Positions 57,814 to 63,442 of a stretch of DNA of 64,000 bases are shown here, in pieces. Both the position numbers and the translations under genes were made by a program. Position 1 is the first letter of the stretch, and each line of letters starts with the position of its first letter. Below the pieces are notes generated by a model. It searched no databases and was not told the DNA's origin. It worked only from the letters and a program-made list of their open reading frames with translations. Origin of the DNA: Bacteroides uniformis (GTDB lineage: Bacteria; Bacillota_I; Bacilli_A; RFN20; CAG-288); assembly GCA_963600815.1 (NCBI GenBank), contig CAVCCX010000001.1, positions 39,001 through 103,000 on the forward strand, written 5' to 3'.

Positions 57814-57821
57814 GAGAAAAC

Positions 57822-57848
57822 GGGCTTTGCAATAAGGCCCGTTTTTTT
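57822..57848 (+). terminator. Rho-independent terminator ending the pur operon.
   Basis: AACGGGCtttgcaataagGCCCGTTTTTTTG immediately after the purB stop. Confidence 0.7.
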
Positions 57849-57878
57849 GTGGTTCGAATCAGAGCATTCCATTCAATC

Positions 57879-59534
57879 CTATTTCTCTTTCGGCATTTCC
57901 TTTGACCATGTGAACCCGAACAAGGCTTTCTCATCATTTCCAAGTTTGACGACCTCATGTTCCTTTATGATCTGCTGAATCTCTGTGCTGAATACATTGA
58001 TTCGGTCGATGGCAATGAAAATCTGCTTTTCGGATTTACTGTAGAGCCTAAACAGTCCTTCCACTGGTTCATCCCATATGTTCTTGAAAAGCATGGAATC
58101 GTTGATGATGAAGGGAAGAGAGGTCAGTTTTAGAATGGCAAGGTCAAACAGGATGAGGCTTTTATATTCCGTTCCTGTCCCTTTGTCTTTTGGAGTCTTA
58201 TAGGTATAGTTAGTAAAATCCGGAATGGAGATTGTCGGAGGAATTCTCTTCTCAAGATAGATGCTGTCATTCAGTTCTTCCAGTTTGGAATTGATTGCCT
58301 TTTCCATCTCAGATAAGACATATCCGAAGTCATCATTCATTTGTTTGCTGATGTCTCCAACTTTTCTCTTGATGGATTTTGTCTTCTCGTATATGGCAAT
58401 CTGGTTTTCGAGATTCTTTATTTCGCTTCTCTTGCAATAGACTGCATCCATGAACGTCTTTGGAATCCTTGGAGAGATATTATTTTCCAATAGAGTGCGA
58501 TTGATTTCATCGATTCTCTTTTGGATTTTATCGATCTTATCAGACAGTTCCTTTTTCTCGTTCTCGACTTCCTGGTTGACGTTTTTGCTCAATTGTTTTT
58601 GGAATTCGTTGATTTCCATGATGGACTTCAAATCGATTTCAGGAAAGAAGGTCGAGATTTTTTCTCTATCCGTTTCATCCATCAGCAGGGAATCTCCGGT
58701 CATATCCTGCAATGTCTTCAGCCGTATGGATAAAGATTTTCTTTCCCTGAAAAGACAGATCTGTTCTGATTTGAGATCGATATCCTTTTGTGAAAGGCTT
58801 TCGTCGATAGCGATGGAAGCCTGGTTTTGGTTCTTTATCAGAGAGTCGAGTTCATCCTTCAGCCTCTGTATTTCCTGCTTTGCGGATTCCATAGCAGACT
58901 CATTTTTTATCGGTGAATAGACAATGTTGTATTTCTGTGCCGCATCCATGGCCTTCTTTGCGTTCTTTGCTTCGGTGACTTTCTTGAAATCATCGTCAAC
59001 AATGCCAGTTTTTCCAAAGAGGTCGACCAGAACCCTGATTCCATTTTCAGCGCTCGAATCATTCTCGTATGTCTTCAATGGCTTTTTGACATCATAGTTG
59101 TTTTTTCCATATACCCTTGAAAATCCTTCAACCAACGCACGGAATGATTTCATGGCTGAAGATCCGAAATATCTCTCTTTGAGAAAATCATGCAAGCCAC
59201 TTATCGGCTTTTTTTCACCGATTGAACTGTAGGAAGCATCACATTCGAAATAATGGCTTGCATCAGCCGTGTCTCTGCGGAAATGATATTCGACCGCATC
59301 GAATTCAAATGTGAAATAGATGGTATGGTCACCGACATTTTCCCTCACGTCGGAATCACTAGCACCATAGGTTTTTCCACCAAAGCAAAAATCGACAATC
59401 ATCAATAGGCTTGATTTTCCAATCGAGTTCAGGGCGTCATCAGCACCCACAACACAGTTCAAACCGGAAGTGAAATGAATCGTCTTGTTTGGAATATTGT
59501 CAGAGAATCTGTCGCATCTTATTTCCTTCAGCAT
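57879..59534 (-). CDS. SMC-like coiled-coil ABC ATPase, LmuB-like (Lamassu/ABC-3C-type), third gene of the cassette.
   Basis: 551 aa. The N-terminal MLKEIRCDRFSDNIPNKTIHFTSGLNCVVGADDALNSIGKSSLL has a RecF/SbcC-like strand-plus-Walker-A layout with an extended P-loop ending GKS. The central 300 aa or so is Lys/Glu-rich coiled coil. The C-terminus carries Walker-B-like PFIINDS and QIFIAIDR. Confidence 0.6.
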   Translation of the reverse strand: MLKEIRCDRFSDNIPNKTIHFTSGLNCVVGADDALNSIGKSSLLMIVDFCFGGKTYGASDSDVRENVGDHTIYFTFEFDAVEYHFRRDTADASHYFECDASYSSIGEKKPISGLHDFLKERYFGSSAMKSFRALVEGFSRVYGKNNYDVKKPLKTYENDSSAENGIRVLVDLFGKTGIVDDDFKKVTEAKNAKKAMDAAQKYNIVYSPIKNESAMESAKQEIQRLKDELDSLIKNQNQASIAIDESLSQKDIDLKSEQICLFRERKSLSIRLKTLQDMTGDSLLMDETDREKISTFFPEIDLKSIMEINEFQKQLSKNVNQEVENEKKELSDKIDKIQKRIDEINRTLLENNISPRIPKTFMDAVYCKRSEIKNLENQIAIYEKTKSIKRKVGDISKQMNDDFGYVLSEMEKAINSKLEELNDSIYLEKRIPPTISIPDFTNYTYKTPKDKGTGTEYKSLILFDLAILKLTSLPFIINDSMLFKNIWDEPVEGLFRLYSKSEKQIFIAIDRINVFSTEIQQIIKEHEVVKLGNDEKALFGFTWSKEMPKEK

Positions 59535-59743
59535 TTTCTTATCCTCCCATCATCGACAAAATCAATCTTTCGGATGGCAAACAGGACGCTCATGCCATCA
59601 GAGAATTCCTTGGCATTCATTTTCGAGGAGACTTTCATGTAGATTTCCGTGATAAGCATATCCTTATCGATGGCGTTCAAAATCTCTGCCATCTGATAGA
59701 TGATTGTCGTCTTGTATCGGTTTACCTTATTCGGAAATTTCAT
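59528..59743 (-). CDS. Small middle-component protein of the three-gene cassette (LmuC/ABC-3C MC-like). The start is uncertain; the ORF extends to 59833.
   Basis: About 71-101 aa. It overlaps the upstream effector stop by 17 nt and the downstream ATPase start by 7 nt. No motifs. Confidence 0.45.
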   Translation of the reverse strand: MKFPNKVNRYKTTIIYQMAEILNAIDKDMLITEIYMKVSSKMNAKEFSDGMSVLFAIRKIDFVDDGRIRKC

Positions 59744-60839
59744 GGAACACCTCACAGCTTTGGATGAAATAGGAAACGATGATTTCAGCGATTGATTTCT
59801 CACAGCAGGCTGCATTTGCAACTTGGTCGACAAGACAATTGAAGACAGCTTCTTTATTATCGGATGATTGCTCTGCCTTTATGCAGGCTATCTTGATTGA
59901 TGCAGAAAGAAGTTCGTAGGAACGCTGTTCTTCTCCATCCAATTTGCCGAACATATCAAAAAGCGTCGAGAAATAAGAGGTGACATTCATCCTGACCTTG
60001 GCATAAAGGGCAAAGTCTGCTTTCTTATCGATCTTTTGATCGATTCTCAGACTCTTCATACTCAGCTTCACTTTGGTGACATTCTCGCATCTCAGAAGAT
60101 TATCGATCGCGTTCATCAGCTTTTCGTTCATTTCGATAGACCCAATCTGCTTTCTAAGTGAATTCTTTTCCTCTAGGGAAGCTTTTATCTTGAGAATGTC
60201 TTTTCCTAGTTGCCTATTTCGAAGCTTTTCGGCGCATTTCCGACAAAGCCCGATTGTTTTCGATTGTTCTTTCGGCGATGTGCCATCCAACGCAATTGCG
60301 ACAATTGCGTTCTCTTTGGACGAATCCAGATCGAGATGACATCCACAGCCCGGACAGATTCCTTCATCTTCCTGAAACAATTCAGAGCGAAGAGTCGCTG
60401 TTCCTTCAAGTTGAGCACTTCGAAACAGCGATGAATTATCCAATAAGATCGTTCGAAGCTGGTCAGAGACCTTCCTTGCAAAGTTGGTTTCATCAACACT
60501 CTCATCATGAAAATGAAACGTCTCGACAAAATCATCGACAGCATAGCCTTTGATTTCGTCATTCAATATTTCAGTCAGATTTGTCGTATCCAAAAATGGG
60601 TATATCTTTTGCGCTATCTTGGAAATCGAGCTTCTGCCTTCGCAAAGATTCCTCTTTTGCTTTTTCGTCATTTGAGCGATTTCTTCCTTCAGTCCTTCAT
60701 TTTCTGATCTTATTGAAGCCAATATGAGCAAATCGAAAAGCTCGGCCATGCTCTTGCATCGGCCCTTTAGAAAGGGATAGAGCAGCGTACACAAATCCGA
60801 AAATGTCATGATTCGAAATTTCCCCCGATTTCTCTCCAT
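59727..60839 (-). CDS. Putative effector of the cassette (LmuA-like position) with an HNH-like/zinc-ribbon motif.
   Basis: 370 aa. A central ICPGCGCHLDLD...(30 aa)...GLCRKCAEK has the paired CxxC spacing of an HNH or treble-clef nuclease. GAGGG RBS upstream. It is the first gene of the translationally coupled trio. Confidence 0.5.
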   Translation of the reverse strand: MERNRGKFRIMTFSDLCTLLYPFLKGRCKSMAELFDLLILASIRSENEGLKEEIAQMTKKQKRNLCEGRSSISKIAQKIYPFLDTTNLTEILNDEIKGYAVDDFVETFHFHDESVDETNFARKVSDQLRTILLDNSSLFRSAQLEGTATLRSELFQEDEGICPGCGCHLDLDSSKENAIVAIALDGTSPKEQSKTIGLCRKCAEKLRNRQLGKDILKIKASLEEKNSLRKQIGSIEMNEKLMNAIDNLLRCENVTKVKLSMKSLRIDQKIDKKADFALYAKVRMNVTSYFSTLFDMFGKLDGEEQRSYELLSASIKIACIKAEQSSDNKEAVFNCLVDQVANAACCEKSIAEIIVSYFIQSCEVFHEISE

Positions 60840-60966
60840 TTCCCTCGTTTCCCTAAGTGAAAAAACTGATTTTGTATTCTATTCGCGCTTCAGGAAAGTC
60901 TCTGGGTCCGGTAACAATATTGTACCAAAGATTTTCTAAATGCCAATTACATTAGGAGGTTTTTCA

Positions 60967-61635
60967 ATGAGAAAAACAATTTTTGACGACGGCTTCCAAG
61001 ACTACTTGGTCGAACAGGCTGATTTTGAAGGAAATGATGGCATTCCAATGCTGCTTGATTGCGACAATGCTGAGATTCCATCGAGACTTGTTCCTTTCAA
61101 CAAGGCGAGAACGGATTCCCTGAAAACTGGATACGTCCATTTCTACATTCATGATCGCCAATATGGCGAGATTCTGACGAATACCAAAAGGTATGTGCCG
61201 TTGCTGCGACAGTTCGATGGCGTGATAACGCCTGATCCGACGATTATCATCGGAAAGTCGAGATGTCTCCATACCATCAGCACCTATATGAACAGAGCCA
61301 TCGGATTCTATTTGCAGACCCAAGGCATCCCCATCATCCCAAACATACGATGGGGTGACCCATCGACATATGATTTCTGTTTTCTAGGAGTTCCAAAGAA
61401 TTCCCTTGTCAGTATCAGCACGCATGGCGCGATCAAAAAAGACAAATCGAATGGAAATCTTTTGAGAACATACTTCCGGATGGGTTTGAAGGAAATGCTT
61501 CTGCGCATAAAGCCATCGGATGTCATCGTCCATGGCTTCATGCCTGAGGACATATTCGGTGATTTTATGGAACAAACAAGATTCCATCGGTATCCATCTG
61601 AATTCGAACAGACTCATAAGAAAGGAGGTGAATAA
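60967..61635 (+). CDS. Hypothetical protein, DUF4417-like.
   Basis: AGGAGG RBS 7 nt before the ATG. The VHFYIHDRQY...NRAIGFYLQTQGIPIIPNIRWGDPSTYDFCFLGVPKNSLVSISTHG region resembles the DUF4417 family. Divergent from the Lamassu-like cassette. Confidence 0.45.
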   Translation: MRKTIFDDGFQDYLVEQADFEGNDGIPMLLDCDNAEIPSRLVPFNKARTDSLKTGYVHFYIHDRQYGEILTNTKRYVPLLRQFDGVITPDPTIIIGKSRCLHTISTYMNRAIGFYLQTQGIPIIPNIRWGDPSTYDFCFLGVPKNSLVSISTHGAIKKDKSNGNLLRTYFRMGLKEMLLRIKPSDVIVHGFMPEDIFGDFMEQTRFHRYPSEFEQTHKKGGE

Positions 61636-61637
61636 AG

Positions 61638-62006
61638 ATGGGCGTCACAATCAGAAGAAATTCCAAGCCGGTAAAAGCAAATCCCTTTTATCATTTCGAT
61701 ACAGAAAGCGGTTATTTCGGGATCCATAAACCATCGAACAAGGAAACCACAAGGACGATTTATACCAAAGGCGATCCAGAAGAAGAAGCAAGAAAGCTGT
61801 TCGAGCAGTTTACTTCCGGTGGTAAAATAGAAGTATTAGTCGAAGGCCACATGTGGGGCTGTTCTTTGGATGATGGCACATATGTCACGCTTAGAATTAA
61901 TCATCCACCAGGACATGCTCCAGCAGTCGAACTTTCGGTGAGACAATCGAAAGACCCTGCCGGAATTGTCGGACAAAAAATACATTTTGAAAAGGAGCAC
62001 AAATAA
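61638..62006 (+). CDS. Hypothetical protein.
   Basis: 122 aa. It starts 3 nt after the upstream stop. No motifs. Confidence 0.4.
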   Translation: MGVTIRRNSKPVKANPFYHFDTESGYFGIHKPSNKETTRTIYTKGDPEEEARKLFEQFTSGGKIEVLVEGHMWGCSLDDGTYVTLRINHPPGHAPAVELSVRQSKDPAGIVGQKIHFEKEHK

Positions 62007-62008
62007 TC

Positions 62009-62656
62009 ATGAAAATATTAGACAATTCAATAAATGGCGAAGGCCTTGAGCATCTAAAGTCAATAATCGGGAACAAAATCATTTCGTTTTCTCATAGGGC
62101 GCTTGATATGAGATTCCCAAATTCGAATGTTTTCTTCATGCGCTTAGGACTTATTTGCTCGAATGGAGTCTTTATCCTCGATAACCGAGTCGACTGGGAG
62201 GATGATTGGTTCTGCTCCCCTGACTACACGCCTCATTTTGTTTTCAACAAAATTGAAAATGAAAAGCAGTTTCCCAATTATGATGGATTCAATCTTGAAG
62301 GAATGGCAAAGTTCCCTGTCAATGAGACTGTCATTGATATCCTAATGGTTCATGATGAGGTTTTAGTTCTTAAATCCGATGAACCCTATGAAGAAATCCT
62401 AAGCACGGAAGGCGTTGTTTTCGTGACTGATAAAAGACAATATGCCTTCTATAAGGAAACCACATGGCTAAATGAAATCACTCTTGAATACAAAGGGCAT
62501 GATGTGCTTTCGAAGCTCGAGGAAATTAAGAAGCATTGGAATGTGTTTGCAAAACCATATGATGGGAAAATCAAAAGAAAACTTATTCATCTTGCTTCAG
62601 GCAAAGAAGAAGTCATCGAAGAAGATACGATCATCGGCGACGTTTACGATGACTGA
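62009..62656 (+). CDS. Hypothetical protein.
   Basis: 215 aa. It starts 3 nt after the upstream stop and is followed by a terminator. Confidence 0.4.
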   Translation: MKILDNSINGEGLEHLKSIIGNKIISFSHRALDMRFPNSNVFFMRLGLICSNGVFILDNRVDWEDDWFCSPDYTPHFVFNKIENEKQFPNYDGFNLEGMAKFPVNETVIDILMVHDEVLVLKSDEPYEEILSTEGVVFVTDKRQYAFYKETTWLNEITLEYKGHDVLSKLEEIKKHWNVFAKPYDGKIKRKLIHLASGKEEVIEEDTIIGDVYDD

Positions 62657-62707: not shown

Positions 62708-62745
62708 GAGAGGTCAGCCCACAAGGCTGGCCTCTCATTTTGTTC
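62708..62745 (+). terminator. Rho-independent terminator after the three-gene plus-strand block.
   Basis: GAGAGGTCAGCCcacaaGGCTGGCCTCTC followed by ATTTTGTT. Confidence 0.55.
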
Positions 62746-63442
62746 GTTCTAATTTTCAAATCCACGCATGGCCTTTCAGAGAGTACATTTGCTTTTCTCA
62801 TCATGATTTCTTCTCTTTTTCACAATTTCATAAAGAACTGAAACATCTGGAGAAGAACCAAACATATCATTCTCATACATGTTCAATGGAGAGACATTAT
62901 TTCGGTTCTCCAATTCAAACAGGAATTCTATATTTTCTTTTAAGTCCCGATTTGCACATGCGTGGTTTTTGTAGGCTGCTCACAGTTGTTCTTGTAGTAT
63001 GTTTTGGCCCCTGAAGAGTCATATCAAAATCAGATTCGTTGCACTTCCAATCGTTTTCTGGAGTGCGAATCGGTAGGATTAAAATAAATGCTTTTTACAA
63101 ATTCTTAATGAATTTCATTTCGAAACAATTCTTATGCAATAGAGCATATCCAGTCATGATATAAAGATTTTCAGAATCCTATTCAACCCATAAGGGAGTA
63201 CCGGCAGAATTGATGAAAGTTTCATGAAAGTGAGGGCTTTAGTCAAAAAATGGATGAGCTATTGTGTCGAATTGTCGGAAAAGCCCGAAATCAAGGGACT
63301 TTTCACCACGCATCTGCAAATCGGGAATTTTTCTTTTTTTTGAATTTGTCTTTTTCTATATCATTCAAAGTCATACAAAAAGCAGCCACAAAGAAACTTT
63401 TTACGATCTATTCATGGCAGCGATGGTTCGAATGATTTATCC

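What the first reader, a model, noticed from the sequence alone, without database searches (positions are those of the whole stretch)
57879..60839. Translationally coupled three-gene Lamassu-like (ABC-3C-type) cassette with an unusual HNH-like effector
Three minus-strand genes overlap by 17 and 7 nt. They encode, in order, a 370-aa protein with a central paired-CxxC HNH/treble-clef-like motif, a 71-100-aa protein, and a 551-aa SMC-like ABC ATPase. The ATPase has an extended N-terminal P-loop (G-x9-GKS), about 300 aa of coiled coil, and a C-terminal Walker B. This effector, small protein, SMC-ATPase order matches type II Lamassu (DdmABC-like) and ABC-3C conflict systems. However, the effector does not show the usual Cap4/Mrr/SIR2 domains, so it may be an undescribed effector variant. 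The cassette sits directly after the pur-operon terminator in an accessory patch.
Basis: partly seen in the sequence, partly recalled or inferred. Interest (0 to 1): 0.85.

Follow-up and report, generated by a model that had tools for sequence, protein, structure and literature searches.

The report
Lamassu defence operon, dead HNH effector
This is a real three-gene Lamassu (ABC-3C) anti-phage operon of a known kind, unusual because the nuclease domain of its effector protein has lost all its catalytic residues yet is strongly conserved, and it sits behind an extra N-terminal domain of unknown function.

Summary
Three minus-strand genes (57879-59534, 59528-59743, 59727-60839) overlap by 7 and 17 nt and each has its own ribosome-binding site.

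How the system acts on its target is unknown. My inference is that the N-terminal domain has replaced the nuclease.

A divergent DUF4417 three-gene module accompanies every close relative. That module also occurs widely without Lamassu.

Verdict: a new variant of a known kind.

The parts
57879..59534 (-). LmuB-like SMC/Rad50-type ABC ATPase, 551 aa. It has Walker A N36-S-I-G-K40-S, a helical/coiled-coil insert at about residues 162-425, a signature-like D450-x-G-T-G454, Walker B I-I-N-D479-S480, and no CxxC zinc hook.
59528..59743 (-). LmuC / ABC-3C middle component, 71 aa, basic (pI 9.4).
   Evidence: Pfam MC7 PF20292 4.2e-12, over the whole length. phrog_6259 1.4e-12. RBS GAGGTG. Found between LmuA and LmuB in most of 80 loci. 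pI.
59727..60839 (-). LmuA-like protein, 370 aa as the longest ORF. The probable true start is Met11 at 60809, giving 360 aa.
   Evidence: Pfam CTD11 only. AF2 model pLDDT 81.
60390..60809 (-). LmuA N-terminal all-alpha domain (NTD, residues about 11-150), function unknown.
   Evidence: No Pfam, NCBIfam or PADLOC hit. Only 24 clusters among 1.84 billion representative proteins. Homologous to the N-terminal domain of other long CTD11 LmuAs (hhalign 97.5%, E 6.5e-12; HMM). In those proteins the domain matches positions 1-150 of PADLOC LmuA model PDLC03857. Only weak, generic helical matches in PDB. dN/dS 0.10.
60210..60389 (-). Degenerate HNH (beta-beta-alpha zinc) module, residues about 151-210. 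C162, C165, C199 and C202 are kept. The catalytic His is lost (I182/A183 at that position), Asn is replaced by K194/T195, and the last His by A203.
59745..60155 (-). CTD11, the ABC-3C C-terminal docking and oligomerisation domain of LmuA (residues 229-365).
60919..60946 (-). Promoter-like site upstream of LmuA: TTGGCA, 16-nt spacer, TG-extended TACAAT (10 of 12 matches).
   Evidence: This is a consensus match only, and the total number of such sites in the region is no higher than in shuffled sequence.
57814..57850 (.). Hairpin flanked by an A-run and a T-run, between the purB stop and the ATPase stop. It is a likely bidirectional terminator.
   Evidence: Read by eye (AAAAAAACGGGCCTTATTGCAAAGCCCGTTTTCTC on the minus strand). 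The scan did not report it.
60940..62656 (+). Divergent three-gene module: DUF4417 protein (60940-61635), a 122-aa protein (61638-62006) and a 215-aa protein (62009-62656). It accompanies this Lamassu lineage. Whether it is part of the system is unresolved.
   Evidence: Pfam DUF4417 3.4e-38. Present next to LmuA in all close relatives, with different outer flanks in each. Widespread without Lamassu. A terminator-like hairpin follows at 62708-62736.

Best explanation
The cassette is a short-type Lamassu (ABC-3C) defence operon of the CTD11 / MC7 / DUF2326 (YydD-like) subfamily, transcribed LmuA-LmuC-LmuB.

Shown here:
- LmuB is an SMC/Rad50-like ABC ATPase with invariant Walker A. Its Walker B is D-S, the hydrolysis-impaired type typical of short Lamassu. 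It has no zinc hook.
- LmuC is an MC7 middle component.
- LmuA has three parts: a roughly 140-aa all-alpha N-terminal domain, an HNH fold that keeps its four zinc cysteines but has lost the catalytic His, Asn and His, and a CTD11 docking domain.
- All parts are under strong purifying selection.

Inferred by analogy with the solved Cap4-type Lamassu complexes:
- A LmuA1:LmuB2:LmuC1 complex holds the LmuA C-terminal domain sequestered.
- LmuB and LmuC sense DNA ends or replication intermediates of an invader.
- ATP-dependent head engagement releases LmuA, which oligomerises through CTD11.

Inferred from the comparative pattern:
- The output is not HNH cleavage.
- The N-terminal domain has taken over as the effector. 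It is always present when the HNH is degenerate, never present when the HNH is intact, and is shared with another recognised LmuA family.
- It probably acts non-enzymatically, because it has no conserved polar residues.
- The dead HNH is kept as a zinc-stabilised scaffold or nucleic-acid-binding module.
For: Membership:
- Pfam CTD11, MC7 and DUF2326, with the same calls on a public contig.
- The trio is co-linear in 78 of 80 loci.
- Walker B D-S and the absence of a zinc hook fit the published description of short Lamassu (motifs).

Dead HNH:
- Alignments.
- HNH fold confirmed.

Correlation:
- 26 unique short LmuAs read C-C-H-N-C-C-H.
- All of the roughly 47 unique LmuAs with the N-terminal extension lack at least one catalytic His. 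L110 shows the same.

N-terminal domain:
- It is homologous across these classes.
- It matches the N-terminal half of PADLOC LmuA model PDLC03857.

Selection:
- dN/dS is 0.057 for LmuA (NTD 0.10, CTD 0.046), 0.02 for LmuC and 0.03 for LmuB.
- The HNH-like module is the most conserved segment, at 92% amino-acid identity.

Mechanistic template: bioRxiv 10.1101/2025.03.14.643221 and 10.1101/2025.04.02.646746.
Against: - No phenotype is known for this subfamily. PADLOC lists the ATPase only as an untested candidate, PDC-M68B.
- The N-terminal domain has no recognisable enzymatic or toxic fold and no significant structural neighbour. 'Effector' is therefore an inference from architecture only.
- The window protein itself does not hit PDLC03857. 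The link is transitive, through relatives.
- LmuA is mildly acidic, including the HNH-like part (pI 5.7). This gives no support to a DNA-binding role for the remnant.
- A rough neighbour-joining tree of the ATPases scatters the dead-HNH lineages among active ones, so the history (one loss or several) is unresolved.
- The constant DUF4417 neighbour leaves room for an effector supplied in trans.
Confidence: 0.6

Rival explanations
1. Composite six-gene system. The Lamassu trio is a sensor and switch, and its lethal output is supplied in trans by the divergent DUF4417 / 122-aa / 215-aa operon. For example, the 122-aa protein could be a toxin held in check by the 215-aa protein, and released or activated when LmuA is liberated.
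For: - The DUF4417 trio lies divergently next to LmuA in every close relative, while the outer flanks differ in each.
- A DUF4417 gene is also divergently adjacent in four distant dead-HNH LmuA loci (L031, L075, L076, L110). It is not adjacent in any of the 26 active-HNH loci.
- In those distant loci DUF4417 is followed by a weak PBECR1-like RNase match (1.3e-4, below Pfam's cut-off) or by a SUKH_5 immunity-family protein (2.9e-25).
- The 122-aa family has many invariant Arg, His, Lys, Asp and Gln residues.
- DUF4417 is under purifying selection (dN/dS 0.055).
Against: - The DUF4417 trio is mostly found without any Lamassu genes. At least 14 metagenome loci with more than 4 kb of upstream flank have none.
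- The large class II group of dead-HNH LmuAs has no DUF4417 neighbour.
- None of the three proteins matches a PADLOC model or a solved structure by sequence.
- Adjacency could simply reflect two cargo modules riding on one small island.
Confidence: 0.17
2. LmuA is still a nuclease. The HNH-like module cleaves DNA using substitute residues, for example the conserved E157 and D185, possibly with an active site completed across subunits after oligomerisation.
For: - The module is the best-conserved part of LmuA, at 92% identity.
- E157, C162, C165 and C199 are invariant, and D185 and C202 nearly so.
- An Asp replaces the aromatic residue just after the lost His in both dead-HNH classes.
- In solved Lamassu, the active site forms only on oligomerisation.
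Against: - All three canonical catalytic and metal-binding positions are replaced by Ile/Ala, Lys/Thr and Ala.
- The loop between the strands is shortened.
- Different dead-HNH lineages carry different residues at the His position (L, V, S, K, Q, G, M). This looks like relaxed constraint at the catalytic site, not a new conserved chemistry.
Confidence: 0.1
3. A disarmed or non-defensive derivative. The cassette could be a Lamassu-like complex that binds DNA structures for a mobile-element function such as competition, maintenance or anti-defence decoy, without killing the cell. Alternatively it could be an inert relic.
For: - The catalytic residues are lost.
- Related systems sit beside phage-like replication modules and in a few temperate phages.
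- All three proteins match PHROG families.
- A published Lamassu clade has apparently lost its effector domain altogether yet persists.
Against: - Strong purifying selection on all three genes rules out a relic.
- ATPase motifs are invariant.
- The window copy lies between core genes, with no phage genes nearby.
Confidence: 0.1

Closest known systems
Short-type Lamassu / ABC-3C with HNH effector (LmuA HNH-CTD11, MC7, DUF2326 ATPase; PADLOC candidate PDC-M68)
   Same: - Same CTD11, MC7 and DUF2326 families and the same gene order with overlapping genes.
- The ATPase hits PDC-M68B, and active-HNH relatives hit PDC-M68A.
- HNH is listed among short-Lamassu effectors.
   Different: - The window LmuA has an added N-terminal domain of about 140 aa.
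- Its HNH lacks all three catalytic residues and has a shortened loop.
- It does not hit PDC-M68A at E <= 0.1.
Vibrio cholerae DdmABC and Salmonella LmuACB (Cap4-CTD7-MC3 type II Lamassu; PDB 9uxl, 9hqu, 9hqx)
   Same: - Three-gene order of effector, middle component and SMC-like ATPase.
- Walker A lysine at position 40.
- Non-canonical Walker B, and no zinc hook in the Vibrio system.
   Different: - No sequence-level similarity to the solved chains.
- Different CTD and MC families.
- The effector is a dead HNH plus an unknown domain, not an active Cap4 nuclease.
- LmuB is about 80-100 aa shorter.
Bacillus subtilis YydB-YydC-YydD (DUF2326 / COG5293 ABC-3C locus; integrative model PDB 9a6c)
   Same: - The ATPase belongs to the same Pfam family, and some database homologues are named YydD.
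- The YydD-YydB integrative model is the top Foldseek hit for LmuA, although not significant (E 1.1).
   Different: YydB carries a different effector domain. That statement rests on my own knowledge, not on a test here. No direct comparison with the Yyd proteins was possible.
Lamassu 'clade O' (LmuA without an effector domain; Haudiquet et al. 2025 preprint)
   Same: It is a precedent for a conserved short Lamassu whose LmuA lacks a recognisable enzymatic effector while LmuB and LmuC stay intact.
   Different: Here the effector region is not deleted. It is a conserved dead HNH plus a conserved extra domain. Whether the two groups overlap could not be checked.
HNH / beta-beta-alpha-Me nucleases (Cap5, IscB and Cas9 HNH, McrA)
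   Same: The fold and the Cys4 zinc site are shared.
   Different: The catalytic His, the metal-binding Asn and the last His are absent.

Membership tests
ABC-3C / Lamassu (LmuACB) | SMC/Rad50-like ABC ATPase (LmuB) with a coiled-coil insert between the Walker A and Walker B halves | tested here: met
ABC-3C / Lamassu (LmuACB) | Small middle component (one of MC1-MC8) encoded between the effector and the ATPase | tested here: met
   Pfam MC7 4.2e-12, over the full length. Its position is conserved in the other loci.
ABC-3C / Lamassu (LmuACB) | Effector protein ending in an ABC-3C C-terminal domain (one of CTD1-CTD12) | tested here: met
ABC-3C / Lamassu (LmuACB) | Co-conservation of the three genes as one operon across genomes | tested here: met
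   78 of 80 CTD11 loci have the ATPase directly downstream. The other two are cut by contig ends.
ABC-3C / Lamassu (LmuACB) | N-terminal enzymatic effector domain in LmuA (nuclease, protease, Sir2, lipase and so on) | tested here: not met
   The HNH fold is present but its catalytic His, Asn and His are all replaced. The extra N-terminal domain has no enzymatic signature.
ABC-3C / Lamassu (LmuACB) | Short-Lamassu ATPase motifs: Walker A Gx4GK[S/T] and Walker B hhhhD[Q/S/T/E], with a zinc hook optional | tested here: met
   x-N36-S-I-G-K40-S and I-I-N-D479-S480, with Ser in 44 of 45 homologues. No CxxC is present. Criteria taken.
ABC-3C / Lamassu (LmuACB) | Match to curated LmuB defence HMMs | tested here: inconclusive
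   PADLOC LmuB scores only 9.7e-5 over residues 19-92. PDC-M68B (an untested candidate) scores 6.8e-12. Relatives hit LmuB PDLC03859 at about 1e-9.
ABC-3C / Lamassu (LmuACB) | Anti-phage or anti-plasmid (abortive infection) phenotype; LmuA1B2C1 complex | not testable with these tools
   This needs cloning, phage challenge and biochemistry.
HNH (beta-beta-alpha-Me) nucleases | Beta-beta-alpha fold with a Cys4 zinc site | tested here: met
HNH (beta-beta-alpha-Me) nucleases | Catalytic His (general base), metal-binding Asn and the last His | tested here: not met
   His is replaced by Ile/Ala or a gap, Asn by Lys/Thr, and the last His by Ala. The 26 active relatives keep H-N-H.

The most novel reading that the evidence does not exclude
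A lineage of Lamassu systems has given up nuclease chemistry. An all-alpha N-terminal domain, also found in another LmuA family, is a new non-enzymatic effector that is activated by CTD11-driven oligomerisation. The HNH survives only as a zinc scaffold. In several lineages this disarmed Lamassu has become genetically coupled to a DUF4417 / toxin-like / immunity-like trio, forming a six-gene composite unit in which an SMC-like DNA sensor controls a separate toxin module.
Probability: 0.2. Interest if true: 0.7.

Novelty: new variant of a known kind. Interest (0 to 1): 0.5.

Why it matters
Current models of Lamassu rest on Cap4-nuclease systems, where released LmuA oligomerises to build a DNA-cleaving active site. 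This locus shows a widespread and strongly conserved group of Lamassu operons, in gut Bacillota and on phage-like elements, in which the nuclease active site has been erased. The ATPase, middle component, docking domain and even the dead nuclease fold are all retained.

That raises a concrete and testable question: what does a Lamassu system do when it cannot cut? The roughly 140-aa N-terminal domain is the obvious candidate for a new effector or adaptor.

The result also gives annotation pipelines a rule of thumb. A CTD11 protein with the N-terminal domain should not be called an HNH endonuclease.

The recurrent DUF4417 neighbour is a lead into a large, uncharacterised three-gene family.

Tried and rejected
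- The founding ABC-3C paper (Krishnan et al. 2020, NAR) is not held in the library. I could not check whether it already describes inactive HNH versions of CTD11 effectors.
- The afdb50 fold library was unavailable.
- I tested whether the N-terminal domain is the 'SMEK' effector named for short Lamassu. No NCBIfam hit was found in the window protein or in seven relatives. That idea is neither supported nor excluded.
- Sequence searches of the ATPase (single sequence and 45-sequence profile), of MC7 and of the three neighbouring proteins against PDB chains found nothing meaningful.
- A pseudogene or relic reading was rejected on dN/dS.
- I looked for att-like direct repeats, tRNA-type insertion marks and structured RNAs around the 5.6-kb low-GC patch. 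Only short chance-level repeats turned up, and Rfam gave no hit.
- The idea that the DUF4417 trio is an obligate part of Lamassu was rejected, because most copies stand alone. A facultative link remains open.
DUF4417, the 122-aa and 215-aa proteins, and the isolated N-terminal domain could therefore not be modelled.
Full report

Yes. The ORF list shows three minus-strand ORFs at 57879-59534 (551 aa), 59528-59833 (101 aa from a TTG) and 59727-60839 (370 aa).

Reading the junctions places the middle gene's start at the ATG at 59743, 6 nt after GAGGTG. That gives a 71-aa product and a 17-nt overlap with the upstream gene. The ATPase ATG at 59534 follows GGGAGG and overlaps the middle gene's stop in ATGCTGA, a 7-nt overlap. 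A public gene call on an identical contig has the same products of 370, 71 and 551 aa.

Most homologues of the first protein are 360 aa and start at its Met11. GGGGGA lies about 11 nt upstream of that ATG. The true start is therefore probably 60809.

Two numbers in the finding are slightly off. The P-loop is G30-x8-GKS, and the helical insert is about 260 aa.

purH, purD and purB are confirmed upstream, and a PPi-phosphofructokinase gene lies on the far side. GC content drops from about 0.48 to about 0.40 across 57.8-63.3 kb. A hairpin flanked by A- and T-runs fills the purB/ATPase gap.

**2. What the three proteins are**

Pfam places all three in the ABC-three-component families:
- CTD11 at residues 229-365 of the 370-aa protein (9e-24).
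- MC7 over the whole 71-aa protein (4e-12).
- DUF2326 at the C-terminus of the ATPase (7e-19).

PADLOC calls the ATPase PDC-M68B (7e-12), an untested defence candidate. It gives only a weak N-terminal hit to LmuB (the origin of the PDC candidates is).

In 45 homologues the following are invariant or nearly so: Walker A N36-S-I-G-K40-S, the signature-like G452-T-G454, and Walker B D479-S480. There is no CxxC zinc hook. This matches the published description of 'short' Lamassu: LmuB of about 600 aa, Walker B hhhhD[Q/S/T/E], and zero to two zinc hooks.

**3. Co-occurrence**

A scan of one genome per species found 372 CTD11-type relatives, of which 80 were fetched. In 78 of these a homologue of the ATPase lies directly downstream. 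The two exceptions end at contig edges. A middle-component homologue was detected between the two genes in most loci.

All three proteins also match PHROG families, and a handful of temperate phages carry related ATPases.

**4. The 'HNH-like' motif**

The paired CxxC region is a true HNH derivative:
- A family profile hits Cas9-type HNH (9k32, 1.3e-4) and McrA.

The catalytic residues, however, are gone. Compare an active relative, '...VAHIFP...NLIALCSRCH', with the window protein, '...VAIA...TIGLCRKCA'.

I aligned 73 unique CTD11 proteins. The result was clear-cut:
- All 26 short ones (about 250-295 aa, with the HNH at the N-terminus) read C-C-H-N-C-C-H.
- All of the roughly 47 that carry an N-terminal extension of 150-225 aa have lost the first His, the last His, or both.
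- The window family is the most eroded. The His is deleted or replaced, Asn becomes Lys/Thr, the last His becomes Ala, and the loop is shortened.

The four cysteines remain essentially invariant. This is not decay. Against an 85%-identical orthologue, dN/dS is 0.057 for LmuA (N-terminal domain 0.10, C-terminal part 0.046), 0.02 for LmuC and 0.03 for LmuB. The HNH-like segment is the best-conserved part, at 92% identity. dS is close to saturation, so these ratios are approximate.

**5. The N-terminal domain**

Residues about 11-150 are predicted as ten helices. The domain has no Pfam, NCBIfam or PADLOC match. A full HMMER pass over 1.84 billion representative proteins found only 24 clusters, all with the same overall architecture.

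The domain is homologous to the N-terminal extension of the other long CTD11 LmuAs (hhalign 97.5%, E 6.5e-12). An HMM built from both groups finds it in every long LmuA, including ones left out of the model. In those relatives the domain matches positions 1-150 of a 327-position PADLOC 'LmuA' model, PDLC03857 (E 2e-18 to 5e-6). It is therefore shared with a recognised LmuA family that has no HNH.

The positions conserved across classes are hydrophobic. I saw no conserved catalytic-type residues.

**6. Mechanism**

What is shown: membership of short Lamassu / ABC-3C, an intact ATP-binding site with a hydrolysis-impaired Walker B, a dead but constrained HNH, and a constrained extra domain.

What is inferred from the solved Cap4-type systems: LmuA is held through its C-terminal domain by a folded LmuB dimer and LmuC. 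DNA ends or replication intermediates trigger ATP-dependent release. Freed LmuA then oligomerises.

The published structures show that the N-terminal effector makes no contact with the rest of the complex, so effectors can be swapped freely. Given that, the perfect association between gaining the N-terminal domain and losing HNH catalysis is best read as effector replacement, with the HNH kept as a zinc scaffold.

I give this reading 0.6. Most of the uncertainty concerns the output step.

**7. Neighbours**

This was an unexpected result. The divergent operon comprises DUF4417 (60940-61635), a 122-aa protein (61638-62006) and a 215-aa protein (62009-62656). It is present next to LmuA in every close relative, while the genes beyond the six-gene block differ in each genome.

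A DUF4417 gene is also divergently adjacent in four distant dead-HNH loci (L031, L075, L076, L110). There it is followed by different small genes, including a weak PBECR1-like match and a SUKH_5 immunity-family protein. No active-HNH locus has a DUF4417 neighbour.

Yet the trio is a module in its own right. Of 78 metagenome loci with a relative of the 122-aa protein, almost all with enough sequence have DUF4417 upstream, but only four have Lamassu genes. The large class II group of dead-HNH LmuAs lacks DUF4417 and sits instead beside phage-like replication genes and type I restriction-modification genes.

I therefore keep 'effector in trans' as a rival at about 0.17, not as the main reading. 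The 122-aa family comprises 175 proteins, has no Pfam domain and has many invariant polar residues.

**8. Comparison with the known, and verdict**

The cassette is a member of ABC-3C / short Lamassu on every structural and genomic criterion I could test. It fails one criterion, an enzymatically competent effector.

HNH-type short Lamassu is already recognised. The active-HNH relatives are PADLOC candidate PDC-M68. A Lamassu clade without an effector domain has also been noted.

What I did not find described in the papers I could read is the architecture 'N-terminal helical domain, dead HNH, CTD11', or its link to DUF4417. The founding ABC-3C paper was not available to me, so prior description cannot be excluded.

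I rate this a new variant of a known kind, with interest 0.5.

Noticed in passing
window 60940-62656 (+); L001-L008, L030, L081, L084-L086, L160, L161: A divergent three-gene operon (DUF4417, a 122-aa protein and a 215-aa protein) accompanies every close relative of this Lamassu cassette. The outer flanks differ in each, so the six genes travel as a block.
   Followed up: partly
L087-L139 (metagenome loci): The DUF4417 + 122-aa (+ 215-aa) trio is a widespread stand-alone module. Most copies have no Lamassu genes within 4-6 kb. The 122-aa family (175 proteins, 120-148 aa) has no Pfam domain and many invariant residues: R6, N8, K13, R39, E50, R86, H93, D106, Q113, K114 and H116.
   Followed up: partly
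L031 6004-7491; L075 5479-7020; L076 6015-7542; L110 5247-6871: Distant dead-HNH LmuA loci also have a divergent DUF4417 gene, but followed by different small genes. One gives a weak PBECR1-like RNase match (1.3e-4, below cut-off) and one is a SUKH_5 immunity-family protein (2.9e-25). This pattern resembles swapping of toxin-immunity cassettes.
   Followed up: partly
L009, L010, L014, L020, L021, L039, L060, L068 (upstream 0-7.5 kb; downstream 10.5-17 kb): The larger group of long dead-HNH LmuA systems sits next to a conserved phage-like replication block (DUF2800 PD-(D/E)XK, Enc34-type ssDNA-binding protein, family A DNA polymerase, sigma-70-like factor). It is often followed by an HTH gene and by large genes that look like type I restriction-modification genes. 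That last assignment is by size and order only and was not tested.
   Followed up: partly
window 62750-63440: A stretch of about 700 bp with the lowest GC in the region (0.35-0.39). It has no convincing ORF and no Rfam hit. It contains a 25-nt inverted repeat (62942-62966 / 63305-63329, 92% complementary, 338 nt apart). It may be a remnant of an element or gene at the island's right edge.
   Followed up: partly
L161 4247-4714: A genome with 99%-identical LmuA and LmuB and the same purB neighbour has an extra 155-aa gene (no Pfam hit) between LmuB and purB. The window has only a 65-nt gap there.
   Followed up: no
L007 11278-12290; L002 856-2522: Extra copies of DUF4417-module genes occur near the Lamassu block. 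L007 has a second 122-aa/215-aa pair downstream of LmuB. L002 has a second DUF4417 gene with two different small genes about 5 kb away.
   Followed up: no
window 60809-60839: The annotated 370-aa start of LmuA is probably 30 nt too far upstream. Most homologues begin at Met11, which has a better-spaced GGGGGA ribosome-binding site.
   Followed up: yes
PDB 9a6c: The top Foldseek hit for LmuA, though not significant, is an integrative cross-linking/AI model of Bacillus subtilis YydD-YydB. YydD is the DUF2326 ATPase of another ABC-3C locus and YydB is its effector. This may be independent evidence that ATPases of this family bind their effector in cells.
   Followed up: no
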